DNA of 52,013 bases from contig WELB01000004.1 of NCBI GenBank assembly GCA_009602725.1, positions 885,938 through 937,950 on the forward strand, given 5' to 3'. The notes under the pieces were generated by a model. It saw only the letters and a program-made list of their open reading frames with translations. It ran no database searches and had not been told where the DNA came from. The DNA is from Spirogloea muscicola. Lineage: Eukaryota. Positions 4,006 to 41,906 of the stretch are shown in pieces. The first letter of the stretch is position 1, and each line of letters begins with the position of its first letter. The position numbers and the translations under genes were made by a program.

Positions 4006-6143
4006 TCAAAGCTGCTGCGGCAACAGCGCGAGGGCCAGCGAATTGGCTGTCAATCTAAAGGACTGAGCTGCCTGGGTCAAAGAGTCCCGTTGCTCGGGCC
4101 ACAAAGCCTCCGGGCACTGAGCATTGAATGAGTACAGGTTGTTGTCATAGCTGGCATACACAGATACATTGTGACGAAAGAATGTCGGGGCCTGCACAGT
4201 GTACTCAAGCACGTAGTAGGTGGTGGCAGCTCCAGCATTGCCTCCTCGTCGGCTTGCTTGCACCAGGACGGCCTCCTTGTTGGACCCCTTTGGCGCTATG
4301 ACGTTATTGAGAAGTCGCTCGCCCACTTGCTGCACACTCCCAAAGGCCTCAAGCCTGGCCGTCCCAGCAGCATGCACCAATATCAGTGCAAGTAGCAATT
4401 CAACAGTAAGCTCGGGTAGATCAGGATCAAGACCCCATCTAGGCTTCCTTCAAAGCAGGACTCAGAAGAAAAGGGCGTGAACATGGCCCATGGCTCAGAC
4501 CTCTAGGTGGCCCCAGGATGTCACATCATCATTTAGCAATATGACTGACACGATCTGGGCAGCTAGCAATGACTCAGGTAACATCTGCTGCCATTGGGCA
4601 TGACTCTAAGAGCTGGTCTAGTCAGCTCACTGGAAGCCTGGCGCAACTGGCGCCACCACAACGCTGACATTTAGCTCTCCTGCACTCCCTGGCGGTCCAA
4701 AAGCCACTATGGGCTCTACCGCCGCTCGACGTTCTGCCTGCTGCTCCTTTAACCTGATTGAGGGGAGGTCCAGTGACCGCTCCCTCTCAGCCCGTTCTGC
4801 TGCCCGATAGAGCAACCGCTGGTCCCCAACCCACCTCTCAGGGTACATAAATTCTGCACACATCGTTTTAATGCCTGCTCTTATATTCCGCACTTGCCAC
4901 AAGTGCACTGCACACTACGTGGGGGTAGTTCCCCTACCATGACTTGCAAGCAGTTAGCAAGATCACGATACCATAGGGACAGCAACCAATAACAGTCTGG
5001 ACTGAGCCCGACAACTGTGACCGCGCAAAGGTGGGCTAGCAGAAGTGCTGTGAACGCATGTGACTCTGGGAAGGAATGAACATACCGAAGCCGAGGCTGC
5101 CATCTAGGCATCTTTTGAACCCTGCGACAGGGAAGAGGACGTCCAATTGGAGCCTCCTCGAGAGGGCAGTGTTCGTGCTGAGGAGGAGGCTCGTCACACC
5201 AAGGAAGTTGCTTCCAAAGGCCACCGAGAGGCCCACGAGGCTTCCGAGGAGCAGTCTTCTGCTTGAAGGCAGAGTGCCCCCCCACTCCACCAGCTCCGTA
5301 GGCGACTGGCCTGGCAAAGAACTGAGGCCCACCAAAGCATGAAGATGGAGGTCTTCCTGGTCCGATGCAACATCGACCACTATGCACATCTTTATGGCAA
5401 GCAGCTGGAGATTGGAAGATTCTGGTTATGTGCGAGGTTAGCACGAGGGCACAGTTGCTCATTCAAATTAGGGTGTCTGCTTTTGGCACTATCGTGGTTA
5501 GGGTTTAGGGTTTAGCATCAGGACGTCTGCTAAGCAGGCCACTTTCCTCTACGGCCCTCGAAACGTGACTGAGTACAGCAGCGGCAGTGATGGACTATCA
5601 CCTGCGGGTCGAGGCCGAGGGCCTGCCTCCAGTACCATCGGCAGCGGCTGCTGCACCACACAGCACGCATTGCAGGGGGCTTCAATCAACGCTGATTGGG
5701 TCTGGCTCCCTTTACCTAGATTTTCCCTTCAATGCTCTGGGATCGTCCGTCCATTCGGAGCCATAAGGCAAGACTTGGACTTTTATCAGCGTGAGAGACA
5801 TGGCGGCCTTGCCTTGAGACTTGCCGTCCGCTTCGGCTTGCTGGCCCTCCTGCAGGCCCGCCCGGGCGGCCCCAGCAGGCCTCCGCCTCCTCGCCGACGG
5901 CGCAGGCGCCCGCTCCTCCTCCCTCGAGCTCCGCCATGGCCTCCGCGGCGGGAGGCCCGCGCCCAGATGGCTCGGGCCGACAGACGTGGGGAGCGGGCTG
6001 CGGCCCATGCCGCCGCTCCTCCACGAGCAGTCGCTGTGTGGAGGCCGCGGCGGGCAGCTGGGCGAGCGGAGCGGCCGCGACGGCGACTCCGCCGCGCCGG
6101 GCGCCAATGGCGGCGGCGGCGGAGGCGGCGAGGTGATGGCCAT
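4006..6143 (-). CDS. PPD7: PsbP domain-containing protein 7-like (chloroplast thylakoid lumen), multi-exon
   Basis: Exons encode LQLDVLFPVAGFKRCLDG, EFMYPERWVGDQRLLYRAAE, EPIVAFGPPGSAGELNVSVVV and YYVLEYTVQAPTFFRHNVSV..LYSFNAQCPE, matching the recalled PPD7 sequence. The Pro/Ser/Arg-rich N-terminus from ATG 6143 resembles a transit peptide; the 5' exons are less certain. Confidence 0.88.
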
Positions 6144-6289: not shown

Positions 6290-9200
6290 GAAGGGCTCGC
6301 TCATTGAGGATAGGGGGCTCCCCCTTCTCGTACTCTGTTCATTCTTTTTCGGGCTGGTTGTTCCAGCCCCTATTCTCAATGGGCGAGCACTTTCTCGCTG
6401 GAGAAGGCCAGCCCGAAAGAGAATGAACAAAGGACGAGTAGAGCCAGGGGAAGAAGAGCTCGCCCGTAGAGAAGAGGGGCTGGCAAAGCCAACCCAAAAA
6501 GAATGTCCAATGCCAAAGAAAGAAGTGCCGAAAAGGACTACACTACAAAGCGCGAGACGGTGCAGAGGGAGATGCAGATCGATGCTCAGTATCCAATTGT
6601 GAGCAACAGCAGATCAGAGTAACTCGAAGCAGGAAAAGCGGCACTCTGCCGCGACCCGGAAGCAACAGCCATAGCACGGCCAGCGCGCGTGGACCGCATG
6701 AGCCAAAGAAAGTGCTCGCCCATTGAGGATAGGGGCTGGAAAAGCCAGCCCAAAATAGAATGAACGGAGTACGAGAAGGGGGCCAGGGGAAGCGCTAAGA
6801 AAAAGAAGCACACAAAGAAACAAAGCAGCTACGAAACACTCAGTAACCCCTGCTAAGCAGCCGCAGATCAGAGATGCTAGGCTCCTGGAAGTGGGTCCCC
6901 TGGCCAGAGCCAGAGGCAGCAGCTAGGCTCCTGGAAGTGGGTCCCCTGGCGCATGAGCGAAAGAAGAAAGTGCTCGCCCATTGAGGACGGGCTGGAAAAG
7001 CCAGCCCAAAAAGAATGAACAGAGTACGAGAAGGGGGCCAGGGGAAGCGCGAAGAAAATCAAGCACACAAAGAAACAAAGCAGCTACGAAACACTCAGTA
7101 AACCCTGCTAAGCAGCCGCAGATCAGAGATGCTAGGCTCCTGGAAGTGGGTCCCCTGGCCAGAGCCAGAGGCAGCAGCGAGGGCTCTGCCGGCACGAAGG
7201 TGCAGCGCCCGGGCCAAAGACCTCTATGTTGGGTGTGGGACTCGTTGCACCAGCCGAGAAGAGCGCTGTAGCGAGACCGCCAGCCTCATCCGAAAGACCC
7301 TGCGCGAGGGAGCCTGCAGCATTGAAGCCTGGCGAACCCTGCCGCCGCTCGATGGCCTCTCTGGCAAGCCGCTGGAGGAGATCCAACCAGCCACTGCCGA
7401 AGGCCCTGTGTACGTCAATGGCCAGTGCCGCGAAGGCATCCCCCGGAGGGGTGGTCAGAGTACTTGCGCTCCTTACTCCGAGCCGCCAAAGCGACCGCGT
7501 GCCCGACGAGCGTCGCCGACTTCGCGGGGCTGGCCGAATCAACGCAGACTGCAGTCACCACATCAGCGATGATACGCGGACCTCCTCCAGGCGGGATGGC
7601 AACGAGGTCCGCGTGGTGGGTGCGGTGTCCCTGCAGGATGGGCATGATCGTCGAGTTCTCCACTGCCACTTGTAGCCGGCCTCCAGGATAAAGAAAGCGC
7701 GGCCAGATTGACTGGTGGCTGGGAAAAGGAACAGGAACACACCTCCAGGAACACACCCTGCATGGCGTCCCGCAGGAGGTCGTGTGAACCTGTCCGCTCG
7801 CCCCCGTGCGCGCAGCGGAGCATATGGGCCGCCAGCACCGCAGGGTCATCGTGGCGGGCACCGCACTCGCACTGTTGGACCCCGACGAGGCAGGGAGGGA
7901 TGAGGCCAAGGAGCCGGTGGGCCGCCGTCCTGAATACCGCGTCTGAAATTGGCAGCGCCGTATAGATGGGGAGCGCTGATAGAGAAGAGCTCGCCCATAG
8001 AGAATAGGGGCTGGAACAACCAGCCCGAAAAAGAATGAATAGAGTACGAGAAGGGGGCCAGGGGAAGCGCTAAGAAACAGAAACAAAGCAGCTACGAGAC
8101 ACTCAGTAACCCCTGCTAAGCAGCCGCGCTGATAGCCACGCCGCCGCCTCGGGAAACGTGTGTATAAAGAGATGTGGAGGCCATATGTGGCCAAGGGGGA
8201 GGAGGCGGAGAGGATCCGGGCGCGCCCTCGAATGTCGTGCGGCGGAAAGGGGGAAAAAAAGAAATGCGGCTGCTGATCTTAAAGAATCGGCTGTGAACCG
8301 CCAGCCAGATGCATACAGGTGTTCATGACGCCCTCGGATGTCGTGCGGCGGAAGACTTCGTAGCTGCTTTGTTTCTGTTTCTTTTGAAGGAGCTCCACCA
8401 CCTGGTCATAGGCCGCAGGGGAAGCACTAAGAAGAACAAGCACAAGAAGAACGTAAGCAACTACGAAGCACTCAGTAACCCCTGCTAAGCAGCCTCAGGT
8501 CAGAGAGAGGTCCACAGAGAAGAGGGGCTAGCAAAGCCAGCCCAGAAAGAATGGACAATGAATGAAGCCAGAGAAAGATGGAGCCGAAAAAGGACTACAC
8601 CACAAAACACTGCCACCAACATCACCAAGTTACCAGAATCACACTGCTATGCAAGAGATTACACCAAGTAGGAGCTCAGGCTTAGTTAGAGAACGGCCAG
8701 CTGTATACGGAAGGTGTTCTCACAGTGTGAACGCGCCCGCCTGGCTCGCCGCTTAAGGCTGACACCTGGCGCCACAGTGGGGGGCCACCATTCCGCGCCA
8801 CGTGTCCATCAAAGGCAGCGGCCAAGCCTGCCACGGTGGCAAGCGGCCGGAGTTGCGGACTGTGCGGCACGTGTCCTCCACGTGCAGGGTATATCGGGCC
8901 CGGAGCCGACAGTGCCCGCCGCCGCGGCCGCCGCCTTGGCCGCGCTAGCTTAGGTAGGCCGAGAAGTTCAGGGTTGCCAACTCAAACTGAATGATTCGCA
9001 CGTAAGAGAAGCACACAGAAAGAAAGTGCTCGCTCATGGAGAAGAGCGGCTGGCAAAGCCAGCCCAAAAAGAATGGACAATGCCACATAGCCCCCAGTTG
9101 ACACAATGCTTGGTTTGACTATTGGACGACTGTAACAGTCTAGGCTGAGCACCACCGCCATGCTCGTACGCTGCTTTATGCCACATTGCTTATTGACCTA

Positions 9201-10320
9201 AACTTCAATGGACATGCTGGAGCTTGTGATTTCCTTCTGGGCTGGCCTCTCACAGCCATTTCATTGATCTTAAAGTTTTCTCTCTGTTTTGGACCTTGTA
9301 CATTACTCTGTGGGCTGTCTTCTCTCAGCCCTCGCCCCCTTCAGAGCTGCTTCTTCTGGAAGAGCTGCTTCTTGTGATCTTCGCCTTATTGGCTGCTGGG
9401 TACCGCTGGCCGTCACAGAGAGAAGCAAGCCCAGATTGCGAAGAAAGTGCTCGCCCATTGAGAATAGGGGCTGGAACAACCAGCCCGAAAAAGAATGAAC
9501 AGAGTACGAGAAGGGGGCCAGGGGAAGCGCTAAGTAACAGAAACAAAGCTGCTACGAGACACTCAGCCGAAGCCGGCATTGGCTGTCTGAACAGTATTCG
9601 TTGGCTGTCTAAACAGTATAAGAGGGAAGCGCTCATCAAAATAGGGGCGAGGGCTGTGAAAAGCAAGCCCTCAAACGCGAAAGGCTGCCGCTGGCTCGCT
9701 CGCTCAGCTTTTCCGCATGCGCATTCAGACTTGCGTATCTGTGTGCTTCAGCGCTGTCTGGGCCCGTCGGACTTTGTCCAGGTCGTTCTTGAGCTGGCTT
9801 CTCACAGCCTATCTTTAATTTCCAAAGCCATTGCCTCCCTTGTCCACGGAGGAGCTAATATGGTTGATCACCCTTTTGCGCTAACCTCTCACAGCTATTG
9901 CCTTGTTTGTAAGAGCTGAGAAGAACAAGTAGAAGCTGTTTCAAAGAAGGAGCCGCCTGTCTTCTCTCTTCTTCAAACGGGGCGACGGCTGTGAAAGAAG
10001 GGACCCACTTCCACGAGCCTAGCATCTCCGACCTGCGGCTGCTTAGCAGAGGTTACTGATTCGTAGCTGCTTTGTTTCTCCGTGTGCTTGTTTTTCTTAG
10101 CGCTTCCCCTGGCCCCCTTCTCGTGCTCTGTTCACTCTTTTTTGGGCTTGCTTTTCCAGCCCCTATTCTCAATGGGCGAGCACTTTCTTCTGTGAAAAAA
10201 GCCAGCCCACAAATGGGGACAGAAGGAAGTGCCCGCCCATTGAGAAGTGGGGCTGGTAAAGCCAACCCAAAAAGAATGGACAATGTTCAAAGCCAAAGAA
10301 AGAAGTGCCGAAAACAGAGG
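6290..10320. repeat. Mosaic dispersed repeat cluster of direct, tandem and inverted copies of two related modules; probable non-autonomous or degenerate mobile element
   Basis: Long module (GAAAGTGCTCGCCCATTGAG..GGGCTGG-N5-CCAGCCC..GAATGAACAGAGTACGAGAAGGGGGCCAGGGGAAGCGCTAAG..CCCTGCTAAGCAGCCGC) at ~6707, ~6966, ~7984 and ~9443 (+), and at ~6320-6396 and ~9999-10189 (-). Short module at ~6453, ~8515, ~9022 and ~10225 (+). Confidence 0.85.
7180..7980 (+). pseudogene. Degraded coding-like segment of unknown origin between repeat copies
   Basis: GC-rich, protein-like stretches in shifting frames (ASLIRKTLREGACSIEAWRTLPPL; PEGWSEYLRSLLRAAKA; RKRGQIDWWLGKG..HRRVIVAGTALALLDPDE) interrupted by stops and frameshifts. 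No family recognised. Confidence 0.35.
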
Positions 10321-10994: not shown

Positions 10995-13715
10995 ATGGAG
11001 AAGTCCTGCCCGGGCGCCACTGCCGTGGTAAGTCTGTGACCTGCGCCCTCGCCACCGCTTGACCGTCAGCGGGGCTTGGAGGCCCCAGTCGGGCCTAGGG
11101 ATCTGCCACTGGCATGTTGAAGGACTGGCCTTCAACGACCGCCGCTGGTCTGCCACGATACTCTGGCACGATACTCAGCCTCGGCCTCGCGCTTGATACT
11201 TTCTCAATCAGAACGTGTGGTCGCAAGGAGTGCGCACTACGAGCTTGCCTGGCCAGGCGTCATCAGTATTGCATGCTTGCATTCAGCGTGTGCGTTCGAG
11301 TCTTACATCGAGTTCCTTGGCCAAAGCAAGGAATGTGATGTAAATTGGTGATGCAAAGGCTCCGCTAATCGCTCTCCTGTAAGTGAGAAGATGAGGCTTA
11401 GCACCGCACGGTCCATTCAGTCGAGGTTCACATGCATGGACATGGTGTCTTCTTTGCAGGCAAGGTGCCCTGTCAAAATGTACGAAGCTCTGCGGGGCAG
11501 CCGCTTCTGGAACTTGAAGGGCGCAATAGGAGAGCTTCACGTGCATTCACTCGGTCCAGGCGCCTTCAAATTCGAGCTTCAGGACCTTCTTGTAGGTGCA
11601 GCTTGCAGTATGGCTTGTGTCAATGTACTATGTCAATCTCAGAACATGCAATCAATGCTCTTGGCAAATTGCAGAGCATTGAATTGCAATTCCTGCAAGT
11701 ACTTCCACTCCCATCCCCAGCAAGTCAGTCCAGCAAGCCAGTAGCTTGCACTTGCTGGCCATCTAGTGAAGTCTGCTGTGAAATTGAAGAACGATCAAAC
11801 AAGTCAACCTTTACTACCTTAACAGCTTACTCTTACTCGCGCAACTTATACGGAGTGTCACAGTGTTTCATTCGAAATGCAAGCCCTGAGGTGCTCAGAA
11901 TATTGGTACCAATGTGCTGCTTTCAACAGGATGGTCAGATACTGTTCGAGTATACTCTGCGGGCTCCAAGCTATTTCTCTGCTCCTGCTAAGAGGTTCTT
12001 TGCTCTTCGTCAGCAGGTCAAGCCCGTGGCCAAGCATCAGCCCTATGCTTAAGCACTCCCATATTGTACCATTACGTGAATGAGAACGTGTTTGGTAAGC
12101 AGCTGTCCTGTTTACTATGTGGTATAGTCTTAGTTTGCATGAGGTGCTCATGTTGTGCTCTCTTGCTCTGCAGAATGGGACATTTGTTGGACTTGGATTC
12201 AGCGACCTGGAAGCTGCATTGACAATTGGAAACAAAATCTCTCATGGTCTTGGAGACCCGAGCCAGTGGGCAGGCTGTTCGCATAAGCAAGTCTCACGTA
12301 GTAACTCTGAGATACCTCGTTCAGGGAGGCCAAGCTCAAGTCACGAAGGAGCAGACCCCATTGTGACTTACAGGAGCCTCCCCAAACGTGGATCAGCTGC
12401 CTCCAAGGAAGGTGGGCATGAGATGCAAAACATGCGTAGATGTAAAAACATGTTCTCTGACTTGCCAGTCTTGATGCCTGTTGTAGCAAAGAGCAGGAAA
12501 GCAACAACTGACCGGCATCACTCAAATTAAGAAAACATCCTGACTATCTTGCACCAAAAGTTGTTGCGGCCTTTTCTTGTCATTTATTATTGGGTGTCAT
12601 GCAATACGTTTCTTTGCAGATCCTCAAAAACAGCAGTTCAGTGAGCAAGCAAGGGTCCTCCGGAAGACAAAGTCAGCTCCTCCTATACCCAGGCGTCGTG
12701 GTTCTGCTCAGTCCAGTGCTACAATCCGGAGACCTGGACACAAGAAGAAGGTCCGCTTACGGCTTGCAAGTGTACTGAGCATAAGTCGAGGTAAGCCATT
12801 GTAGCCTCCACCATTACGCCTTGGTGCATGCAACATATGGTGCTGCCTCATGCATGCAAGTTGTGAATGATTTATCAAGGAATGCAGGATGATTTAGTTA
12901 CTGAAGTATGTCCGGTAATGTCCAGGTAACAACCTCCCAGACATGGACATTGGCTACCCTACAGATGTCAAGCATCTTGGACACATTGGCTGGGACTTTC
13001 ACACCACCTCTGAACCTTCCTGGGTGATTTGCCAAGCCCTTGGTTTGCATGAAAGCATGCATAATACAAAGTCTGCTTAGCTGAGAAGCAGAGACTGGGG
13101 AGTCCTCCCATGTGCAAGACCTAGGTGGAAGTCTTCTCTGTGCCATGCCAAGGTGGACGTCCTTTCTGTTGTTTGACATTCTAGAATCTGCTACTGTGTC
13201 TCAGGCAGGTCTCTTCCTCTTTTGCAGATGGATGAATTCAAGACAAAGGCCAATTACGCTTTTGCACCATTGTCAGACTTTGCCCAGCCTCAGGATCCCC
13301 ATTGGTTCCACGACGCTTACTCGGCTGGTCAATGGGACGCCGGTAGCTCCTCGTCAGGTGCAAGATTCAGGCACTGTTTCCTTGATGCGTCGCCAGATCC
13401 TCATGTGTCACTTCCATTTCATCAGGCTGCCATCAATCTATACGATCTTTGGGCCTGTCAATGTTGCAGCATGTGTGCAATAGGTCACATAGTGGTGTGT
13501 ACTTGCTCCATACATCTACATTTTCACATTTAGCCCTGTTGGGGTGAGTCTGCTCAGACGAGGAGGACTCTGACTGTGACGAGCCTCCACCACCACCCCC
13601 TCAAGAGTATGCCGATTCACCAGAGGTCACATCAGGCACACAGGCTCGGCAAGGGTTAGCAAAGACATTGTCGTCTCATCTGTGGCTTCACAGAAACGAA
13701 TCAGGACGGCCATGA
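10995..13715 (+). CDS. RIC-like CRIB-domain protein with an N-terminal WH1/EVH1-like domain and basic region
   Basis: Phase-consistent GT-AG exons 10995-11027, 11460-11591, 11930-12016, 12174-12411, 12620-12790, 12926 (or 12941)-13023, 13228-13357 and 13558-13715. The spliced protein contains [32 protein letters not shown], a RIC-type CRIB motif. The start and the last exon(s) are uncertain; an alternative end is ~13890. Confidence 0.85.
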
Positions 13716-14323
13716 AGAGACAGGCGGAGTTGCAGTGGACCCTCCATCAGCATGTGGCAGATCAGATTTTGGAAATCCACTGCCTCTGCCTGCCTATAAC
13801 CCTGCGCTCCTTCCTGCTCCATCCCACAATTCCATTGCCATCTCTGCTGCTTTTGCTTGCCCACTTGGAGCACATTCATTTGTAAATTGAGGATCAAGGC
13901 AGGAAGCAGCATCATTGCGCCTGCTTGCAAGTCCTCCTTAGCCCGCCCTGTTCAACTCGTAACTTGTACAGACTTCTTCTGTGGCCGCTACATGCAGCCA
14001 GCCTTAGGAATGTGCACGCCCGTATGTACAGACACGTGGCTGCTCCCTTCAAGATGTAGGGATCATATGCAGCCACTGCAAAGAGATTGCTGCATGGCCA
14101 GGCCATGCACTTGATAAGTAACAATAATATCATTGTGGGCCGCTTGCTATGCTGCAGCTGTCAGATGCAGCTTAAGCACCACAGCAGGCAACAAGCACGA
14201 CCAAGGTTTAGTCTAGACCCGCACCAGAACTGAACTTGCAAAATTGGGCCCAGGACAAGTTGGCTGACAATCTGGACGTGAAGCTATGTAACATCAGGTA
14301 AGCACTACTTTGGAAATGATACA

Positions 14324-16167
14324 TCAAGAGGTGTACTTCACGCCATCTCCTTGGACAATTCGGCCTATCTCAAACGCCGAGCCCGACTCCAGCAATGTGT
14401 CGAGGGCCGGATTGGCTGCCCCGGCGCCGACCACCAGAACCATGCCTACGCCCATGTTGAATGTGCGGAACATCTCGGCCTCGTCAACGCCGCCGACCTG
14501 TGGTGCAGCACTGCTGTGTTGTTAGACCTGCACAGTCACTTAGAGTGCAATGCCGCCAAGAGAAATATTGTTTATTCAGGCACTGGCTCCACAAACCTCC
14601 TGCAGCCACCGGAAGATGGCCGGCACGTGCCATGAGCCCATCCGGACAGCAGCGGCCAGGCCGCTCGGCAGAACGCGTGGTATGTTGTCCGTGAAGCCGC
14701 CGCCGGTAATGTGAGCGATGGCATGCACGCCACCCTGGGCAACGAGGTCCAGCACCTGCGCAGTTATCATTGCGGCCGCCGAAACAACAAGTCAGGTGGA
14801 GTTGTTGCCATGAGCTTAAGCAACAAACCAGTCAGCAGACGCTGATGCCGGCTGACAAACCTGGCGTACGTAGATGACTGTCGGCGCCAGCAGCGCCTCT
14901 CCAATTGTGATGCTGCCATTGCAGCCCGGCAGCACCATGTCCAGTGCCGTCCCCGTTCTTTCCAGGATCCTGCGGGATTTCCACCCCACACCGCTGCATT
15001 CATTGCAATGCTCTGACTGGGAGCATGGTTGGTCTAAGACAGACTTAAGATGGCACCCCACTTACTGGTATTGCCAGCGCATGAACCGCAGTATACTCAC
15101 TTGCGCACAAGGGAGAAGCCATTGGAGTGGACGCCGCTACTGGGAAGCGCGATGAGGCGGTCACCTTCCGCCACGCTGCGGCCGTCAATCACAGCATCCT
15201 GCTTGACTGCGCCGACTGCAAAGCCGCTGAGGTCGTACTCCCCTTCCGCATAAAAGCCTGGCATCTCTGCTGTCTGCCCAGCCAGTAGCACGCGCGTACG
15301 CTAAGTCATTGGCTGCTCACTCTTGACCACAAATTCCGGGGCTCGCAGCATGCTAGTATGCATTCAGGACACAGCAACAAGCAGCTCGGTTGCTCCAGGC
15401 AAGGCGGCAGGCAGCGACCCAACGGCAGCTTTCAAAATTTACAAGTACCGCAGGCAAGCCAGACATAACCTGGCATCCAACCTGAGCACCCAATTGGTGT
15501 ATACATGGGAGTGCGAGAGACAAGCGCTAAACTTGCAAAACCCTGATTAAAAAATGGTCAAATCTAGTCCAGTGTCCTTGTTAGTGTACCTGTACCTGTG
15601 AAGCCTTGACCACAAACGTGACCTCAACAGCGGCACTGCCCTTGACCACTGGGCCCCGAGAAGCGTGCCAACAGAGGGGGCCCCACCTCGCCACCCAGGA
15701 GCACGCAGCCCGCCTGCTCGCAGCCGTCGACGATGCCGTGCACGACGGCCTCGGCGACATCCACGTCCAGCCGCCCGGTCGCATAGTAGTCAAGGAAGAA
15801 GAGCGGCGCGGCGCCGGACGTGACGATGTCGTTCACGCTCATTGCCACCTGTGCCGCTACGGTGCCGGTCCAGTCGCCGCACGGTCTGCGATCAGGGGCC
15901 GCGCGCTTGGGCATGCAGCGCTCCACAGCGTGCAGAAGCACTGTGGAGGCAGTGCCTTCCGGTCCAGCAAGTGAATTATGGCGCCAGCGGAGAAGCGAGG
16001 GCAAACAATGGCGGCAGCGGCGGCGCTCACGAGGTCGATGCCGATGGTGTCGTGGCGGCCCATCTCGAAGGCGAGCCTGAGCTTGGTGCCGACGCCGTCC
16101 GTGCCGGCCACAAGGTAAGAGTCGCCTGCGAGCAAGCGCGCCGGACCAAGGCGCGACCCGTCAGAGC

Positions 16168-16205
<38 letters not shown>

Positions 16206-16368
16206 GCCACCGCCAGAGGGAGGTCCAGGGTTTGGGGTTTGGGGACGGCCAGCCAGCACCGAAGGGGAAGAGGCCGCCGAAGCCGCCAATGCCGGGGGCC
16301 ATGCGGGCGATGCGGCGCACGAGCTCGGCGCCGGCGTCAATGTCCACGCCGGCGTCCCTGTAGGTCAG

Positions 16369-16403
<35 letters not shown>

Positions 16404-16411
16404 GTCGCGAG
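14324..16411 (-). CDS. purM: Phosphoribosylformylglycinamidine cyclo-ligase (AIR synthase, PurM/PUR5); 5' end unresolved
   Basis: Exons encode [84 protein letters not shown] and [13 protein letters not shown]. Stop TGA at 14326-14324. No in-frame ATG is visible upstream. Confidence 0.95.
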
Positions 16412-16454
16412 CCTGCAGGGTGGCGTTGCTTGCCTTGGGCAAGCTGTGGCTGTG

Positions 16455-16645
16455 GAAGAAAGCGGCTGCTGATATGAAAGAATCGGCTGTGAAATGCCAG
16501 CCAGATGCATACAGGTGTTCCTGACGGAGCCAAAGGCTAGGCAGACAGGGCGCCCTCAAAAGGCTGTGAAGCGAAGAAAGCGGCTGCTGATGTCAAAAAA
16601 GCGGCTGTGAAAGCCAGCTCGGTGCCTACAGAGGGTGTTCATGTG
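16455..16645. repeat. Tandem pair of a ~75-bp dispersed repeat also present at ~8260-8335
   Basis: GCGGCTGCTGAT..AAAGAATCGGCTGTGAA..GCCAGCCAGATGCATACAGGTGTTC occurs at ~8265 and ~16461, with a diverged copy at ~16580. Confidence 0.8.
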
Positions 16646-16787
16646 GCTGAGGGGGAGCTAGTGGCTTTGTTGATTCTTTTTTCTGGGCTGGCCACCTCCC
16701 AGCCACCGCCCTCTCTTCAACGAATGCGCCTCTCATGGTAGCGTCTTTCTTCGGCTGTGAGGGCGAAGACTCTTCCAGTAGAGGCCG

Positions 16788-19030
16788 ATGGCTGNGCCGC
16801 CGCGGCGGGCGGCCGCGGCGGCGAGGGCGTCGACGGCGGCGGCCGGCGGAGGCCTGCCGGACCTGTCGGTGACCGTCGACGGGCTGCGGCTCCCCAACCC
16901 GTTCGTGATCGCGTCGGGCCCGCCCGGCACCAACTACGTCGTCATGAAGCGCGCCTTCGATGAGGGCTGGGGCGCCGTCATCTGCAAGACGGCAAGCACC
17001 CCTTCCGTCATTGCCACTGCCACCGCCGCTGCCGCCGCCGCCGCCGAGGCCCTCGCCGCCTGCACCGCCAGCGAGGCGTTCTGGCCTTCGCAGAATCTGA
17101 TGTTTCCTTTCCTCCGCGCCGCAGCTGTCGCTGGACTCGGCCAAGGTGGTGAACGTGACGCCCCGGTACGCGCGGCTCAAGGCCGGCGGGAGCCCCGGCG
17201 ATGCCAAGGGCGGTCGCGGCGAGGTGATCGGCTGGCAGAATATCGAGCTCATCAGCGACCGGCCGCTGGAGACGATGCTGGACGAGCTGGCGCGCCTCAA
17301 GGCCGAGTACCCCGACCGCATCCTCATCGCCAGCATCATGGAGGAGTACGACCGCACGGCGTGGGAGGAGATCATCGAGCGCGTCGAGGCCACCGGCGTG
17401 GTCAGCCCTCGCCCTTGCTCCAAGGCTCGCGCTCTGAAACATTACTGCTGCGCTTGACTCAAATATGGCGTGCTTGCAAGTAGGCTTCGTATGCCTCCCT
17501 TAAGTATTGGCACAGATTATACAGCGAAATAGACACTCTCAAGCTTGAGAGTGTCCATATTACCACCGCACAATGGGCAGCATATTGCTACTACTGAGCT
17601 TCTCGTGACTTGTTCTCCTAGTCCCTGGCACATCTTGCACCAACGGCAGCTGCCACCCGGGCAGCCGCTGGTGATAGTGTTCACAAGCCTCACCCCCGCC
17701 GGCCAGCCGCGTCGGCTCCTGGTGCTGCAGGACGCTCTGGAGATCAACTTCTCGTGCCCGCACGGCATGCCCGAGCGCAAGATGGGGGCAGCCATGGGCC
17801 AGGACTGCAGCCTGCTTGCGGAGGTCTGCGGCTGGATCAACGCCAAGGCCACCGTGCCAGTGTGGGCCAAGATGACGCCCAACATCACCGACATCACGCA
17901 GGTCGGCCCTGGCATGCTCCAGCATGGATTGCTGAAGCTGGCCGGATGCCGCTTGCTGGTGAGGTCGTTGCAAGGTCTGCTCTGACGCTGGCATTGCCTG
18001 CATTGGCCACCATGGTACAGCCAGCGCGCACAGCACTTGCTGCAGGCTGCGAGGGCGTGTCAGCCATCAACACGATCACAAGCGTCATGGGCATTAACCT
18101 TGACACACTCCGGCCCGAGCCGTGTGTGGAAGGGTGAATTAGCCTGGCCCCGATGGCACGTTGTCATTGCGTTCCATGCAACGCATGCATATGCTGCTGG
18201 AGTTGCCTTGTGGGATTTCCAAGATCGTGCATATAAAGTCAATCTGGCAAACTTGCAGGTACACGACGCCTGGCGGCTACTCCAGCAAGGCGGTGCGGCC
18301 CATTGCACTTGCCAAAGTCATGGCAATATCGCAGATGGTGGCAAAGGAGTTCCCTGCTGCATCCGTGTCCGGCATAGGGGGCATTGAGGACGGTGGAAAT
18401 GCAGCCGAGTATCTCCTCCTTGGGGCCTCCACTGTGCAGGTGCTGCTGATCTGCAAGCCCACTTCAGTGTCTGTGCAGAAAGTTGGATGCATGATCATTG
18501 GCACGGACATGGCAATATTGTGGCCATTTATGCCCCTGGTGAGCTCGTGATGGTGACACAGTCCTTGATGTCTGCTTGTAGGTACGTAGCTTGCCGCTGA
18601 TACCTTACAGTCATGCACGTGCAGGTGTGCACGGGTGTGATGATGCACGGGTACGGCCTGGTCAGCAAGCTGTGCGAAGAGCTGCAAGAGTTCATGCGCC
18701 GCCACGACTTCACCTCCATCGAGGATTTCCGAGGGTATGTGCGCTGCCCCCTCTGTGATCAGCTCTGCAAATCCATCCAACATCTCCTAGGCGCTGCTTG
18801 CTAGCTGGTGCGTGTTGTTAGAGCTGCTCCAACAGCGTGGCCATTGTAATGAGCACTGGAATGCGTCGAGCAGGGCATCGCTGCCGTACTTCACGACACA
18901 CCACGAGCTGGTGCGAATGCAGCGAGAGGCGCAGGAGAAGAGGCGCAGTGCTCGGCGTGGCCTGGCATCTGACAAGGAGTGGACTGGTGATGGCTTCGTG
19001 CGCGAGACCGAGACCATGGTCTCGAACTAG
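16788..19030 (+). CDS. PYD1: Dihydropyrimidine dehydrogenase (NADP+), plant PYD1 type, 7 exons
   Basis: Exons 16788-16991 (GC donor), 17125-17400, 17731-17901, 18021-18133, 18259-18439, 18625-18734 and 18874-19030. Motifs: LPNPFVIASGPPGTNY, IGWQNIELISDRPLETML, EINFSCPHGMPERKMGAA, WAKMTPNITDI, YTTPGGYS and GFVRETETMVSN. The N at 16795 makes the start uncertain. Confidence 0.95.
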
Positions 19031-20790: not shown

Positions 20791-21110
20791 GGGCTGGAGG
20801 AGGGGCCCTTGTCTCCCAGACCCTGAGGCCAAAGCCTGACCTCGAGATGCTAGCTGATTCTTTAACCCCCAACCCACCTTAAACCCTGACTACTGAATCC
20901 CTAGAGCTGCCAGGGCAACTCCGAAGCCTGACCCCAGCTGAGCCCCAGCTGCGCAGCCGGCACCGGTGCACGGCGACTGCTCATCGAGCCACTTCCTGGA
21001 CCTTTGACAGCGTGACGCATGCTTGGGTGCTCTCGGCGTCGAGGCTTCAGCATGAAGCTCTAGGGTTTCAAAGTTTAGGCCCGCCTGCAGGAGGCAGGGT
21101 TTGGGCGGTC

Positions 21111-24100
21111 ATGCTGGCCGCAGGCTCTGCCGCCGGGGGCCTCCTGCGGCGCACCGCCCGCGGCGTCACGGCAACGAGCGCCAGAGCCGCAGCGGCGTCT
21201 GTGCAGCGGACGTCCGACCCCCAGTGCGACGAGACCAACGGCTCTAGCCTCCCTTTGGCGAGCCAAGATTCGGTGGTGGGGACGGCAGGTTTAGTGGGAA
21301 AAGAGGAGCCGGTGCAGCCTGCGCAGCAGTCCATTGGCTTACTGCAGCTGCCGGACGGCCTCCAGGCCGCCATCGCCGCCTTCATCGCCCGCAGCCCACG
21401 CCGCCAGGTGCGGCAGGACGCGGCGCGGCTCTCGGGCGCCCTGCGGCAGCGCGCGCGGCTGTCAGCCCACCGCGCACCCCGTGGCCCAGCGGCGACGGCA
21501 ATGTGGGCGGCGGCGACGGCGGAGGAAGAGGAGGGGCGGAGCTGGGAGCACCTTGCCGCCGCTGCAGACGAGCGGCGGCTGGGCGTGGTGCCCAATGCCG
21601 ACGTGGGCGCAGCACCCCATGTGCCCCGCTACCGGGAGCCGGAGGTGGCGGCCTACATAGCCGCCCGCATGCCCGCCACCTACGCCGCGCTGCACCGGGT
21701 TATGCGTGAGGTCTGTCTGTCACGTAGCTCGACGACCTTGCCTTCGCACTGCCGACGTTGTCTAACCGTGCCCTTTTGCTGATGTTCAAAGGCATCCCAG
21801 CTGAAATTTTAAGTTGCTGACTACCTAGTGCTGTCAATAAAGTGTTGCCGCAGGTTGCGCTGCGGCTGCCAGCCTTCTCGCCATCGTCAATGGTCGACTT
21901 TGGAAGCGGCCCTGGCACCGCTATCTGGTGGGCTTGCGCGCCCGTCAGTGCCCGGCAGCACACCGGCTCTGCCCAGCGCCTGTGTTGCTCACGGCAGGCT
22001 GATGTTTGCCGCCACTACAGCCTGTTGCTTGAGTGGTTGCTGGCAGGGCGGCCATGCAGGCATGGCCGGGGCAGCTTCGGCGTGTGGCCATTGTGGAGAG
22101 TTCAGCACCCATGTCGCAGGCGAATGCCACTCTCCTCCAAGGTTCTACACGCCCCAGAGATGCTTCGCACATCTAAGCCTTCACCTCTATATGTCTCTGC
22201 CACTTTGACAGTTACCGGCTACATCACTGTGGGACTGACTTATAGCCTGGTCGAGCTGGCTGCAACTTTTGTTGACACGATACGGCGGGTCTGCTGCTAC
22301 AAAGGGGCCAGCGGGGCACCACCGCAGCTGCGCTACTTCTTGCATGTCGACACGCTCTCCCGCAAGCTCCGCGGCGAAGATCGACAAGTTGACGCAGTTG
22401 TTGCAGTGAGCAGCCGCCCTGCCAAACTGGCTCGTATATTGGTGGGCAAGCACTTTATGGTCTGGTTCTGAACGGCATGTGTGCTCCTCGGTGGCACTTC
22501 CGTGAGGCTGGTATAGGCATATGCGCTCAGCGAGCTGCCGAGCACCGAGGCGCGGGAGTCGATGGTCCGCCGCCTGTGGAGCCGGCACACCAAGCAGCTC
22601 CTGGCATGATCCTGGACCTTGAGATTCTCAAGTCTCTTGTGATACTGATCTGCAGTCTAAAGAGCACACTAGTTGCTCCCACCCCAGCCGTCTTGCATGA
22701 GGTGCAGGATAGGCTGGCCCCTTCATTGCTGCACAATGATGCCAAGGGCCTCAAGCTGTTGGAGTGCTCTGGGCTGCTCATGGGCCAGATCATTGTTGAG
22801 AGCGGCAACCCCTTTGGCTCGACCGTCGTGCGAGAGGCACGAGAGCATGTCCTGCGGCTGGAGCGGAAGGTAATCTGGCACCTTGGCAAGGAGTTGGAAG
22901 CGGAGATTTTAGAATAGCTAAGATGGTGCTTGACTTTTTGGGCTCTCGCATGACTTTCAGCAACCTGCTTGCTAGAAATTTGCTCGTCAGATTATTTTGG
23001 GCACTCATCATCATCCATGTCTTGCTGAGTGGAGAGGTTCACACTGCTGGATGTGCAGGCCACCTGGCAAGCTCCGGCGCAGCAGCTGCATGGGCGTGGC
23101 AAGACTGATGGACAGCATGGGACACAGGACGTGCGGCAGGAGGGTGCCCATGTTGTTGCTCCGGTACGACTGAACCCTTCACCTGCACGCCATTCTTGTG
23201 CAGTGGTCGGATTTCGCCACTAAGTCTTGCTGGGGGGTCAGCATGGCTTCCGCAGTGTGCCCACGATGGGTCGTGCCCAATGGACAGGACGGCAAGCTGG
23301 TGCTACTTCCGCCAAAGGCTGCTGCGTACACCAGCGCAGAAGATGGCCAAGGTTGGCTGCTGGCTGGACATTTGACAGGCTGTAATTTGGCAGTACACAA
23401 AGTGCTTGGGACTGCTGAACAGATACAGGATCGCTTAGATTAGCAAGGTTCTTCGGCCCTACCCTACATACATTGTGGTAAACTGTTGGCTCCCATTTTC
23501 ATATCGCGACCTATGGATGCATTAGTCTGAGTTAGGAGCTCATCCTGGAGACCATGGGGGCTCTGCAGAGGGGCCTGGAGTCGAGCCCTCAGGCACACTA
23601 AGACGAAAACTTTTCCTTTGTGGTCATCAGGCGCGGCGTGCGTCCACAGTGAGGATCTCGACCTTAATCTCGAGTTGCAGAGTGTCTGCACTCTGTACCT
23701 GATTTCCTCATCCATAATCACCAACCCTCGTTATCCTGATGGTTGCGCCGTTGAGCTCTATGTCTCACTAAGCTGCCGAAGGGCGACCTGCAACATGGCC
23801 ACTAAAGAGAGCCTAATGTGGGATGCTGCTGCTGGCCGGTGACTTGAGCCTTGCAATTAGTAAGCAGGTCGGCCGGGCCGTACGAGGTGAATCCTGAAGA
23901 TGAGCCTGCAGCATTGAGCCTCGCTGGCGTCCCTTTGCCAAAAGGACGATCGCTGCCAGTCCCAGGTATTGTAGCCACAGCAGCTGTCATCAGCAGTCTG
24001 GCGCCTCAGCGGATGTCAGAGCCTTTGTTGTATCTCTTCCAACGCTGCTGTTGTGTTGCAGAAGTGGAGATGCCACTCGAGGAGCCTGAATCAGAGAGTG

Positions 24101-24519
24101 GAGAGGCCCACGAACATGCCGCCGTTGAGGTTGCAGCCAGTACTGACGCCAATGGGCAGGTGATTGTGACTTCAAGTGAGCAAGTTGAGGATGAGGAGGA
24201 GGATGAGGGAGGTGAGGAGGAAGGTGGGGGCCACAGAGCACGGGACTTGCATGCGGCCGTGAGCACAGGGTGGGCACGCGTGGTGCGGCCGCCGCTGCGG
24301 CGCGGCGGGCACGTCATCCTGGACGTGTGCGCGGCGGCCGACGCCGGCGGGCGCAGCGGCGCGCTCGTGCGCAGCATCGTGTCTCGCGGGCGGGGCGGCA
24401 GTGCTCGATACCGGCGCGCCCGGCACACACGGTGGGGTGACCTCTGGCCACTTGCTGTGTGGCTGGACGACGGTCCGCGGTCTGCCGCACCTCCCAAGCC
24501 TGCCTCGACCACCTCCTAG
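21111..24519 (+). pseudogene. RSM22: RSM22/METTL17-family mitoribosome small-subunit assembly methyltransferase-like gene with an apparent premature stop
   Basis: Motifs include AYIAARMPATY, SMVDFGSGPGT, AYALSEL, IIVESGNPFG, HVVAP|CAHDGSCPM..WCYFRQR, DENFSFVVIRRG, GWARVVRPPLRRGGHVILDVC and RRARHTRWGDLWP. An in-frame TAA lies at 23599-23601. The family is confident; pseudogene versus base error is unresolved. Confidence 0.7.
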
Positions 24520-25070: not shown

Positions 25071-25790
25071 GGCCAGCGCGCGCCGAGCACCGCGACACGC
25101 GTATCCACTGGTCCGACCCGGACGAGGGCTGGATCGGCGGCCCTGCCGCCGGGCGCGCCGCCGAGTCCGCGCCGCCCGGCACCGCCCTCCCGGTGCTGGG
25201 CGCCGACCTCGTCCCGCTGCTCCTGCAGGCCGAGGACAGCCACTACCTGTGCGTTTGCCAGCGCCACCGCCGCCGCCACCGCCGCCGCCACCGCCGCCGC
25301 TGCCGCCGCCGCTTCTGCTGCTGCCTGATTGACGTAATGACAGCAGCTGCTGCTGCGGCGGCGCAGGTACCTGGGCGTGCCGCCGACCGCGGGCGTGGAC
25401 GAGATCAAGGCGGCCTTCCGGCGGCTGTCCAAGCAGTACCACCCGGACGCGACGGCGCTGCCGCTGGAAGTGGCGGCCGCCAAGTTCGTGCGCCTCAAGG
25501 AGGCCCACAGCGTGCTCACGTCGCCCGAGCGCCGCCGCCTGTACGACTGGCAGACTGCCCAGGAGGCCTCGCGGCGGCAGGCCACGGCGAGGAGGCCGCC
25601 GCCGCGGCCCGCGTACTACCAGCAGGAGGGGTCGCCGGACCAGCGCGCGGACGAGCTCGGCCGCCACAACATGCCCCTCAGCAACCAGGCTCAAGCTGCG
25701 CTGGCCTTTGACGTCTTTGCGCTACTTGTGTCACTTGCTGCCATTGCTTTTGCCGTGCTTGTCAAGGGCCACGGTGCCACCACACCCTGA
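25071..25790 (+). CDS. ndhT: Chloroplast NDH complex subunit T (J-domain protein CRRJ); 5' end missing at an N
   Basis: Exon to 25248 (DTRIHWSDPDEGWIGG...DSHYL) plus 25367-25790 (YLGV..IKAAFRRLSKQYHPD..YDW..NMPLSNQAQAALAFD and a C-terminal hydrophobic helix) match the recalled NdhT pattern. Confidence 0.88.
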
Positions 25791-30030: not shown

Positions 30031-30441
30031 NNNNNNNNNNNNNNNNNNNNNNNNNNNNNNNNNNNNNNNNNNNNNNNNNNNNNNNNNNNNNNNNNNNNNN
30101 NNNNNNNNNNNNNNNNNNNNNNNNNNNNNNNNNNNNNNNNNNNNNNNNNNNNNNNNNNNNNNNNNNNNNNNNNNNNNNNNNNNNNNNNNNNNNNNNNNNN
30201 NNNNNNNNNNNNNNNNNNNNNNNNNNNNNNNNNNNNNNNNNNNNNNNNNNNNNNNNNNNNNNNNNNNNNNNNNNNNNNNNNNNNNNNNNNNNNNNNNNNN
30301 NNNNNNNNNNNNNNNNNNNNNNNNNNNNNNNNNNNNNNNNNNNNNNNNNNNNNNNNNNNNNNNNNNNNNNNNNNNNNNNNNNNNNNNNNNNNNNNNNNNN
30401 NNNNNNNNNNNNNNNNNNNNNNNNNNNNNNNNNTCCGATCT
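30031..30441. other. Assembly gap ending in a probable adapter remnant
   Basis: N 30031-30433, then TCCGATCT, which is the 3' end of the Illumina primer/adapter sequence CTCTTCCGATCT. Confidence 0.75.
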
Positions 30442-32176
30442 CGCGGCGGCCGTCGCGGGGGCTCGTCGCCGCGGCGCCGCCTGGCTCCACCCGTCGCCGC
30501 CGGCGCTGCCGTTGAGCCAGGTGCCTCCGTTTTGCCGTGCTTTTGGCGAATCTGTGTTGGCCATGCCGCCTGTCTTCCAGCTGCCTCGCGATGGCCGAAT
30601 TGACGAGCTTGCTCATGGCGAGCTTGCTTGTGGCGCCAGGCTGACAGATCCGACGGCGGCGTCGGCGGCGGTCGCGGCAGCGGCGGCGGCGGCTGGGACC
30701 TCCGCCATGCGCGCGGCCTCCACCTGGATGACCGCCAGCGACAGTCCTTCTCGTACTGCATAGACCAAGTCAGGTCCTCCTCGCGACGAGCCAAACCGAG
30801 CGCTGTGCCCGCGACGCCGCCGCAGCGCGCCTCCCGGGCGCAGTGGCGCGCCGTTGCGTCACGGCAGCACCTCGACAGCGCCTCGACTGCGAAGCGCATC
30901 GAGCTGAGCGCAGCCCCCTGGGCGCGGCGGGCCATGCAATGGCAGGCGGCACGACTACGAGCACTACCTGTGCAGCCTGCAGCTGCCGGCACAGCAGCGA
31001 CCTGCAGCTTTTGCCTTGCGGGCCTTCAACGTGGAGGTTGCCCGCGTGCGTGACCCTCGATCCCTCCGGCGAGGGCTATGCTTAGATTGGCGCACGCCAT
31101 GTCGCGGCTCGCTTCAGTGAGCGACCATGGTCCTTCGCTTATGGCTCAGCTGAAGCTGTTGTTGTGCAGGTCGCTGACAGCGCCAAGGATCCCACGCTCT
31201 GCATGATGCGCCTGGTCTGGTGGCGCGACGCCTTGGCCAACCTCTACAAGGTCTGCAGCACCTGTTGAGCACGTTGCGCGAGAGCAGTCTGCAGTGGCTC
31301 CCGAGCACGTTGCACACGACCTTAGAGATTCTCGTCAAGCTGCTGGAGATTCTGGATCACCTTGGCGTTGCTGTGCTCTCAGTTGAGCCTCCTTGCACTT
31401 CGGCAGGGCACCGTGCAGGAGCACCCAGTGCTGCTGGCGTTGGCAGCTGTGCTGGCGAGCTGCCGCCTGTCCAAGCCCTGGCTTGACCGCATCGTCGAAG
31501 CAAGGGTGCGTTTGGCCACCTTGGCGCCCTTGTCCTGCTCTGCGACTGCTGCAACAGCTCTGTCAGACCCAATGCTGTGATGTCGACAACAGTCGACGTC
31601 TGTCGCTCCTGCCAGATTCAAGACGTGGAGCATGAGGGCGCGCCGCAAGACATCTCAGCGCTGGAGGCCTATGCCGAGAGCACCGCGTCGTCGCTCCTGT
31701 ACCTTACACTACAGGCTGCTGGTGTAGCGAGCACGCAGGCCGATCATGCGGCCTCGCATGTCGGCAAGGCGGCCGGCATGACGCTCCTGCTGCGAGCAGC
31801 GCCTCACCATCATGCACGGCGGCGAACGTACATCCCCCTTGACACCGCTGCCAAGCACCGGTTATCGCAGGAGGACCTCTACTCCCTGAACCCCCCTCGG
31901 GAGCCGCTTGCCGATGCTGTGCTGGACATTGCCAGCCAGGCGCAGGCTCACCTGGTGACCGCGCGGGCAATGCTGCCCAAGCTCAAGGAGGAGGGGTTAC
32001 TGAATGCCGCGGCACCGATGCTGCTGCCGGCTGTGCCGGCGGCCACCTATCTTGCGGCCCTTGAGCGCCGAGGCTTCCATCTCCTGGATCCTTCGTTAGC
32101 GCGTGGCGTGTGCGCCACTCCGCCCCTCTGGCTGCAGCTGCAGCTCTTCTGGCACTCTCGGAACCAGTCGTTCTGA
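30442..32176 (+). CDS. NDUFAF6: NADH dehydrogenase complex I assembly factor 6 (squalene/phytoene synthase fold); start probably in the N gap
   Basis: Spliced motifs [68 protein letters not shown] and HLVTARAM. Confidence 0.92.

Positions 32177-40893: not shown

Positions 40894-41906
<1,013 letters not shown>

What the first reader, a model, noticed from the sequence alone, without database searches (positions are those of the whole stretch)
10995..13715. WASP-like WH1-basic-CRIB architecture on a plant RIC-type ROP effector
Seen: eight phase-consistent exons give [106 protein letters not shown], a Ser-rich linker, a basic patch ([12 protein letters not shown]), [32 protein letters not shown] and an acidic/poly-Pro tail ([15 protein letters not shown]). 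Known: IGxPTDVxHxxHIGW..PSWMxEFK is the signature of plant RIC proteins, which are ROP GTPase effectors and in flowering plants usually small with no other domain. WASP/N-WASP start with WH1, a basic region and CRIB, and plants are considered to lack WASP. Inference: the first ~105 aa align by eye with recalled WASP WH1 (VKMY~VQLY, the conserved Trp, ILFEYTL~LLWEQEL, RFFAL~[16 protein letters not shown]~AGLNFADEDEA). This would make it a possible evolutionary link in which RICs derive from a WASP-like ancestor that lost VCA and later WH1. No WH2/VCA module is visible. I cannot check whether this has been described.
Basis: partly seen in the sequence, partly recalled or inferred. Interest (0 to 1): 0.9.

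Follow-up and report, generated by a model that had tools for sequence, protein, structure and literature searches.

The report
Ancestral plant RIC: likely truncated WASP
This algal gene is the long form of RIC, a likely partner of the plant Rho switch ROP; its front domain is predicted to fold like the proline-binding WH1/EVH1 domain, is kept from algae to conifers, and has introns placed like those of animal and fungal WASP genes, so plant RICs are likely a cut-down remnant of WASP, a protein plants were thought to have lost.

Summary
The eight-exon, 348-aa gene is real (Spirogloea muscicola; six introns joined in run contigs, the seventh by a loose end). It is an orthologue of the single moss RIC. 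The same N-domain + basic patch + CRIB + PPxPP layout occurs in Klebsormidium, mosses, lycophytes, ferns and gymnosperms; no named angiosperm hit has it. The N-domain models as an EVH1-type PH fold (pLDDT about 90) and keeps the Y/F-W-F proline-binding triad in 30 of 30 members. Fold and profile scores do not single out WASP: Dcp1 tops the Z-scores, and NECAP ties in sequence. Gene structure does point to WASP. Exon 3 is 87 nt, phase 0-0, like human WAS exon 3. Its 5' intron matches 64 of 67 such introns in WASP loci exactly, and its 3' intron matches exactly or within one codon. The CRIB's best PDB hits are WASP/N-WASP. There is no VCA, so it is not a WASP-family Arp2/3 activator. Best reading: a ROP-recruited EVH1 scaffold descended from WASP (about 0.65-0.7), with WH1 lost later in flowering plants. 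Intron controls from other EVH1 genes were not obtained, and two key papers were not readable.

The parts
10995..11027 (+). exon 1 (start codon; 11 codons, phase 0)
   Evidence: joint 11026>11459 GT..AG; homeolog P0003 annotated with it
11460..11591 (+). exon 2: strands 1-3 of the EVH1-type domain, with triad residues Y14 and W23 (P0001 numbering); ends D-L-L before intron 2
   Evidence: loose end at 11592
11930..12016 (+). exon 3: 87 nt, phase 0-0, strands 4-6 with triad residue F73; same length and phase as human WAS exon 3 (c.274-360)
12174..12411 (+). exon 4: strand 7 (GxGF), C-terminal helix of the EVH1-type domain (to about 12254) and Ser-rich linker
12620..12790 (+). exon 5: linker and basic patch (12727-12762)
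   Evidence: 8 K/R in the 35 residues before CRIB
12926..13023 (+). exon 6: CRIB motif (core 12943-12996)
   Evidence: Pfam PBD E 3.6e-6; best PDB hits N-WASP and WASP CRIB
13228..13357 (+). exon 7: conserved post-CRIB block, predicted mostly disordered
13558..13715 (+). exon 8 coding part: short acidic run, PPxPP motif (13584-13601, present in 30 of 30 aligned members), stop at 13713-13715; no WH2/VCA
13716..14346 (+). likely 3' UTR, covered unspliced by contigs; its end overlaps the 3' end of the convergent AIR-synthase gene
   Evidence: table 8

Best explanation
This is the ancestral long form of the plant RIC protein, likely descended from WASP by loss of the actin-nucleating VCA tail; it likely works as a scaffold that active ROP recruits through its CRIB and basic patch, and whose predicted EVH1 domain would bind proline-rich partners. 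Shown: the gene, the domain order (N-domain, basic, CRIB, PPxPP), its conservation from Klebsormidium to gymnosperms, and the absence of WH2/VCA. Predicted: the EVH1-type fold with an intact aromatic triad. Inferred: ROP-GTP binding (from the CRIB and from the moss orthologue, described as a PpROP effector), membrane contact by the basic patch, ligand binding by the groove (possibly its own PPxPP motif as a closed state that ROP opens), WASP ancestry, and later loss of the N-domain in flowering plants. Without VCA it would not activate Arp2/3 itself.
For: Fold: AlphaFold2 gives seven strands plus a C-terminal helix at pLDDT about 90 in two models. Foldseek's top rows are EVH1/PHear domains, with N-WASP EVH1 at rank 2 both times and the highest identity among the ten best rows (22%, E 2.4e-5 and 2.1e-5). 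Atlas features rank WH1 clusters first (0.86-0.88, lead only). A 10-sequence N-domain profile aligns end to end with WASP WH1 and Mena EVH1, and 13 of its 14 PDB hits at E<=10 are EVH1 or PHear domains. Triad: Y/F14, W23 and F73 are aromatic in 30 of 30 members and align with WASP Y54, W64 and F114. Introns: human WAS has introns at c.273/274 and c.360/361, so its exon 3 is 87 nt, phase 0-0, as here. Among 97 distinct WASP loci from metagenomes, 67 had an intron just before the WEQE/WDQE motif, all phase 0 and 64 of them right after D-x-x; RIC intron 2 lies after D-L-L in the same alignment column under three MAFFT modes. 11 loci had a second intron, all six residues after the groove Phe, which is where RIC intron 3 lies in the HMMER register. 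Chance of one exact plus one within-a-codon match: 0.002 under a uniform null, 0.065 under a harsh null. CRIB: best PDB hits are N-WASP and WASP; no PAK chain is listed at E<=10. CRIB-to-first-PPxPP spacing is 58-64 residues in 28 of 30 RICs and 60 in WASP locus L022. Ginkgo long RIC and Colocasia short RIC are 69% identical over 62 residues around the CRIB, and the N-domain gives no significant match. Kollmar 2012 (PMC3298513, passages) places WASP in the last common eukaryote ancestor, so a plant copy needs no transfer.
Against: VIA-align ranks Dcp1 (Z 13.2, rmsd 3.0, 104 aligned) and the CARM1 PH domain (12.7-13.1) above Ena/VASP (up to 12.0), NECAP (10.8) and N-WASP (10.5, an NMR model). 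Pfam DUF1681 (NECAP) hits 5 of 10 N-domains (best E 1.5e-3) against WH1 3 of 10 (6.5e-3), none at cut-off for member 1. A WASP-WH1 profile scores 27 RIC N-domains at only 1.6-14.4 bits, below Ena/VASP (22-32) and Spred (17-22), with chance antibody hits at 12-16. Profile-profile probability is only 6-7%. The 95% hhalign match to a full WASP is driven by the CRIB (score 61 of 65 remains with WH1 shuffled), and the post-CRIB block adds nothing. MAFFT puts intron 3 one codon off; intron 1 is two codons off; the intron after the CRIB is three codons off human c.777. 54 of the 67 WASP introns come from one group of related fungal-type loci. Intron positions of Dcp1, NECAP and Ena/VASP genes were not obtained, so an intron shared by all EVH1 genes is not excluded.
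Confidence: 0.65

Rival explanations
1. A plant NECAP-PHear or Dcp1-type domain was fused to a CRIB motif in early streptophytes, independently of WASP. The domain order is convergent, and the domain binds FxDxF-like or decapping-type motifs.
For: NECAP leads or ties in sequence searches and shares the GxGF strand and the RxFV/I strand; NECAP1 is Foldseek rank 1 for model 1; Dcp1 has the top Z.
Against: The NECAP alignment covers only profile positions 34-103 and needs two four-residue insertions, whereas WASP and Mena align over 7-110. Atlas puts DUF1681 at 0.79 against WH1 0.86-0.88. No DCP1 Pfam family is listed for any of 10 N-domains. It leaves the exon 3 match and the WASP-type CRIB as coincidences. 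Recalled, not checked: human NECAP1's nearby introns are phase 1.
Confidence: 0.2
2. The domain comes from a WH1-class ancestor other than WASP (an Ena/VASP/Spred-like or unassigned EVH1 gene). The shared intron is older than the split of these genes, and CRIB was joined separately.
For: Mena is Foldseek rank 1 for model 2 and has higher Z than N-WASP. A WASP profile scores Ena/VASP and Spred above RIC. No control introns were seen.
Against: It needs a second, independent WH1-basic-CRIB-polyPro assembly. Sequence identity in structural alignments is 20-22% to N-WASP against 13-19% to Ena/VASP. Recalled, not checked: the ENAH and SPRED1 intron lies three codons further downstream.
Confidence: 0.1
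3. It is a lipid-binding PH-type membrane anchor, for example a remnant of a PH-CRIB kinase of the Cla4/PAK type, and not a proline reader.
For: It has the PH superfold; phosphoinositide-binding PH domains appear at Z 8-9.
Against: EVH1-type domains rank above the phosphoinositide-binding PH domains; the triad is conserved in 30 of 30; no PAK CRIB is listed among PDB hits at E<=10.
Confidence: 0.05

Closest known systems
PpRIC of Physcomitrium patens and other long RICs of non-flowering plants (Selaginella entry named RIC1-1 by UniRef)
   Same: Same layout and motifs. Its moss relative P0230 is 115 of 318 residues identical to the window's protein; Selaginella P0018 matches over the N-domain at E 5.5e-29. 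PMC12630451 (passages) calls PpRIC the single moss RIC, a PpROP effector 'structurally very different' from all 11 Arabidopsis RICs.
   Different: Databases label these proteins only 'CRIB domain-containing' or uncharacterized. The passages read give no fold or WASP link for the N-domain. The algal protein has an extra acidic run before the Pro motif.
Flowering-plant RIC1-11
   Same: CRIB and its flanks (69% identity over 62 aa, Ginkgo long RIC against Colocasia RIC).
   Different: Described as small and unstructured apart from CRIB (PMC11194304, passages). No named angiosperm protein is among the 37 N-domain hits.
WASP / N-WASP / fungal Las17-type proteins
   Same: Order WH1-type, basic, CRIB, polyPro; aromatic triad; 87-nt phase 0-0 exon in the WH1 domain; WASP-type CRIB.
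   Different: No WH2, central or acidic-Trp VCA tail, and only one short Pro motif. No detectable homology of the post-CRIB block to the GBD helices. WH1 similarity is near noise.
NECAP PHear (DUF1681) and Dcp1 EVH1 domains
   Same: Same fold, with equal or better structural and profile scores.
   Different: No CRIB in those families (own knowledge); partial or gapped sequence alignment for NECAP.

Membership tests
RIC (ROP-interactive CRIB proteins) | CRIB motif | tested here: met
   PF00786 at 24.7 bits against cut-off 21.3
RIC (ROP-interactive CRIB proteins) | Orthology to described RICs, with no GAP or kinase domain | tested here: met
   Full-length hits E 1e-26 to 1e-59 to land-plant and Klebsormidium CRIB proteins; cluster links to Physcomitrium and Selaginella RIC; PBD is the only Pfam family passing cut-off
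RIC (ROP-interactive CRIB proteins) | Binds GTP-loaded ROP | not testable with these tools
   Inferred from CRIB and from the moss orthologue (PMC12630451 passages citing Ntefidou 2023)
EVH1-like PH superfold | Seven-stranded sandwich closed by a C-terminal helix | tested here: met
   Foldseek E about 1e-5 and Z 10-13 to EVH1-type domains; predicted model, not a solved structure
WH1/EVH1 proline-binding domains (PF00568) | Aromatic triad in the groove | tested here: met
   Y/F14, W23, F73 in 30 of 30, aligned to WASP Y54, W64, F114
WH1/EVH1 proline-binding domains (PF00568) | Pfam WH1 match at the curated cut-off, ahead of sister families | tested here: inconclusive
   WH1 in 3 of 10 N-domains (best E 6.5e-3); DUF1681 in 5 of 10 (best E 1.5e-3)
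WASP family (Arp2/3 activators) | N-terminal WH1 followed by basic region and CRIB/GBD | tested here: inconclusive
   Order and CRIB met; WASP-specific identity of the WH1 rests on introns, not on sequence or fold scores
WASP family (Arp2/3 activators) | C-terminal VCA (WH2, central, acidic with Trp) | tested here: not met
   No WH2 hit in 12 long RICs while control WASP loci give WH2; D/E share of the last 30 residues 0-0.2 against 0.5 in WASP; 3' end covered unspliced
WASP family (Arp2/3 activators) | Autoinhibitory GBD helices after CRIB | tested here: not met
   Shuffling the WASP post-CRIB segment does not lower the match; region predicted at pLDDT about 45-57
WASP family (Arp2/3 activators) | Phylogenetic grouping with WASP against other EVH1 families | not tested
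   No outgroup sequences (NECAP, Dcp1, Ena/VASP) were held as usable records; two NECAP motif scans found nothing
NECAP (DUF1681) | PHear domain match at Pfam cut-off | tested here: inconclusive
   Best 16.2 bits on whole proteins against cut-off 29.2; best E 1.5e-3 on N-domains

The most novel reading that the evidence does not exclude
Plants never lost WASP. It survives as RIC: streptophytes dropped the VCA tail and kept a ROP-gated WH1-basic-CRIB-polyPro scaffold from Klebsormidium to conifers, and flowering plants then dropped WH1, leaving the small RICs. The moss RIC that controls filament differentiation would act through a WH1 groove and an unknown WIP-like proline-rich partner, possibly held shut by its own PPxPP motif.
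Probability: 0.6. Interest if true: 0.85.

Novelty: new variant of a known kind. Interest (0 to 1): 0.72.

Why it matters
RICs are treated as plant-specific, largely unstructured ROP scaffolds, and WASP as lost in plants (PMC11194304, PMC12630451, PMC3298513; passages). If RIC is a VCA-less WASP, Rho-effector wiring in plants and animals shares an ancestor, and the origin of RICs has an answer. Whatever its ancestry, the ancestral RIC has a conserved, foldable EVH1-type domain with a testable ligand groove. That gives a direct handle on how the single moss RIC acts, and on what flowering plants gave up when their RICs multiplied.

Tried and rejected
Single exons gave no WH1 hit in Pfam. No whole genome is held for this window. 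The run search listed one holder, not on record as RNA; a second, narrower read-laying gave no result, so contig-level linkage across exon 4 stays open. The idea that the post-CRIB block is a remnant of the WASP GBD helices was rejected: shuffling that WASP segment left the score unchanged (66.5 against 64.9). The 95% hhalign result was rejected as evidence for WH1 homology. A complex prediction of the N-domain with the protein's own Pro segment gave 'no answer' (0.26 against mark 0.34, alignments not used). In both full-length models the structural alignment to an ENAH-peptide fusion (7lxf) reached model residues 308-310, a weak hint of docking that was not confirmed. Scans for NECAP genes as an intron control found 0 matches in prokaryote genomes and 0 in viral contigs, which are the wrong collections for it. 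Paper searches for NECAP1 and SPRED1 exon borders gave none in the passages read. Atlas search with full-length moss RIC scored only 0.75 to a WAS cluster. Earlier findings of this scan: none. Ntefidou 2023 and Mulvey and Dolan 2023 are not held.

Full report
Gene. Splicing the eight exons by coordinate gives GT..AG introns and a 348-aa frame ending at 13715. A search with exon 2 returned the annotated product P0001, filed as Spirogloea muscicola, in a cluster with two further copies, P0002 and P0003. Contigs of run X1, RNA by the tool's guess, join six of the seven introns at these sites; intron 2 shows as an 11-nt loose end equal to the start of exon 3; the region after the stop is covered unspliced to 14346. 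Nine of 26 contigs are 90-95% alike, so homeologs contribute.

Family. P0003 found 14 proteins at E<=1 among 2785 candidates, full length and 30-40% identical apart from its own cluster. An N-domain profile found 37 proteins at E<=10 among the 7993 candidates scored. 18 of the 37 carry an organism name: Klebsormidium, Spirogloea, Sphagnum, Ceratodon, Selaginella, Diphasiastrum, Psilotum, Pteridium, Ceratopteris, Adiantum, Ginkgo, Araucaria and Taxus. One further cluster holds Physcomitrium. None of the named is an angiosperm, chlorophyte, liverwort or hornwort; the rest are unnamed, and the search was cut, so absence is weak evidence. The unfiltered HMMER search gave 247 hits at E<=0.001; of the 150 listed, all but eight match only the CRIB-containing C-terminal half. 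A short Colocasia RIC matches the long Ginkgo protein over 62 residues at 69% and nowhere else. The N-domain, the CRIB and a PPxPP motif are the conserved blocks of the 30 aligned members.

Fold. Two AlphaFold2 runs (22 and 30 sequences) give residues 1-107 as seven strands and a C-terminal helix at pLDDT about 90, the rest mostly disordered except the Pro motif. Foldseek returns EVH1-type domains: NECAP1 9.6e-6, N-WASP 2.4e-5, ENAH 3.1e-5 for model 1; Mena 1.8e-5, N-WASP 2.1e-5 for model 2. VIA-align ranks Dcp1 first (Z 13.2), then CARM1 PH, Ena/VASP up to 12.0, NECAP 10.8 and N-WASP 10.5. The fold is therefore EVH1-like, but it does not choose a subfamily. Sequence does not either: NECAP 15.9, WASP 15.4, Mena 14.3 bits; Pfam DUF1681 5 of 10, WH1 3 of 10. 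From the WASP side, a 12-sequence WH1 profile scores 27 RIC domains at 1.6-14.4 bits, against 99-103 for WASP, 22-32 for Ena/VASP and 17-22 for Spred. A 21-sequence profile scores them 2.5-17.0 against at most 4.7 for 1080 shuffles. The residues aligned to WASP Y54, W64 and F114 are aromatic in all 30 members, and Klebsormidium keeps the FH pair seen in WASP and Mena. That these residues form the proline-binding groove of EVH1 domains is my own knowledge.

Introns. Splice variants in PMC9304939 (table passages) put human WAS introns at c.132/133, c.273/274 and c.360/361, and its missense entries fix the numbering. WAS exon 3 is thus 87 nt, phase 0-0, residues 92-120. RIC exon 3 is also 87 nt, phase 0-0, and aligns without gaps from its first residue to the groove Phe. 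Two loci checked in Pfam carry WH1, PBD and WH2. Within 45 nt upstream of the motif, 67 of 97 had an intron, all phase 0, 64 directly after D-x-x; the three others are one N-x-x, one with an extra residue and one poorly resolved. 54 of the 67 are related fungal-type loci, 11 have the animal-type offset and 2 lie between. RIC intron 2 follows D-L-L and falls in the same column under three alignment modes. Within 40 nt downstream, 11 of 97 had an intron, all at one site, six residues after the groove Phe. RIC intron 3 is at that distance in the HMMER register and one codon earlier in MAFFT's, because RIC has one extra residue in this region. Intron 1 is two codons away. Simulated chance for one exact plus one near match is 0.002 (uniform) or 0.065 (35 phase-0 sites only). 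Sphagnum-like read-through fragments P0117 and P0021 break at the same three places, which suggests mosses keep these introns (indirect). The missing control is other EVH1 genes. I recall that NECAP1's nearby introns are phase 1 and that the ENAH and SPRED1 intron lies three codons downstream, but no call confirmed this.

CRIB and tail. In four PDB searches the CRIB's best hits were N-WASP and WASP, with no PAK chain at E<=10. The 95% profile match to a full WASP rests on this motif, and the block after it shows no WASP homology. There is no WH2 and no acidic Trp end, so this is not a member of the WASP family of Arp2/3 activators, though its front half is built like one.

Mechanism and rivals. 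Most likely (0.65): active ROP recruits the protein by CRIB and basic patch, and the EVH1 groove binds a proline-rich partner or its own PPxPP motif; the protein descends from WASP, lost VCA early and lost WH1 in flowering plants. All binding steps are inferred. Rivals: independent fusion of a NECAP- or Dcp1-type domain (0.2), another WH1-class donor with an older shared intron (0.1), a lipid-binding PH anchor (0.05).

Literature. Kollmar 2012 (PMC3298513, passages): WASP was in the last common ancestor and was not found in plants. PMC12630451 (passages): PpRIC is the single moss RIC, structurally very different from Arabidopsis RICs, and RICs are listed as plant-specific. PMC11194304 (passages): RICs are small and unstructured apart from CRIB. 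PMC8847673 and PMC3663805 (passages) do not link RIC to WH1; PMC12445832 has no hit for RIC, WASP, WH1 or EVH1. Searches listed no paper that, by title, abstract start or the passages read, names a WH1/EVH1 domain in RICs. The two papers most likely to describe the long layout (Ntefidou 2023; Mulvey and Dolan 2023) and their supplements were not held, so the long form itself is probably known, and the fold or WASP link may be.

Verdict. Observation confirmed; EVH1-type domain well supported by prediction and general to non-flowering streptophytes; WASP ancestry likely but open. New variant of a known kind; interest 0.72.

Noticed in passing
window 6300-10290: A dispersed repeat lies upstream of the gene in both orientations (8 copies of a 63-nt core; pairs up to 178 nt at 96%; an inverted pair at 10139-10273 with a 25-nt spacer), MITE/SINE-like.
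   Followed up: partly
P0001 annotation (SM000004S15035) against window 10995-14346: The public gene model starts inside intron 1 and adds a last exon near 14160-14230; run contigs support exon 1 and an unspliced 3' end instead.
   Followed up: yes
P0002 (homeolog on scaffold 45): Annotated without exon 3, which would remove three strands of the domain; annotation slip, assembly gap or a decaying copy.
   Followed up: no
window 14280-16540 and 16600-18800, 4009-4449, 21000-24500, 25341-25787, 31487-32173, 36154-36726: Ordinary neighbours by Pfam on single exons: AIR synthase (PurM), a dihydroorotate/dihydropyrimidine dehydrogenase-like gene, PsbP-like, Rsm22, DnaJ, squalene/phytoene synthase-like and a Y-family polymerase.
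   Followed up: partly
window 42900-50000: ORFs read by eye like a Sin3 corepressor gene (recalled likeness; two exons gave no Pfam hit).
   Followed up: no
window 30031-30433 and 40915-41780: Assembly gaps (runs of N), the second followed by a long poly-A run.
   Followed up: no
P0019, P0020 (Ginkgo Gb_01193, Gb_01194): Adjacent gene numbers carry the N-domain and the CRIB half separately, probably one long RIC split by annotation.
   Followed up: no
L030 (metagenome locus): A WASP-type WH1 unlike the animal- and fungal-type loci also has the D-x-x intron, hinting that the intron is older than opisthokonts; its taxon was not determined.
   Followed up: partly
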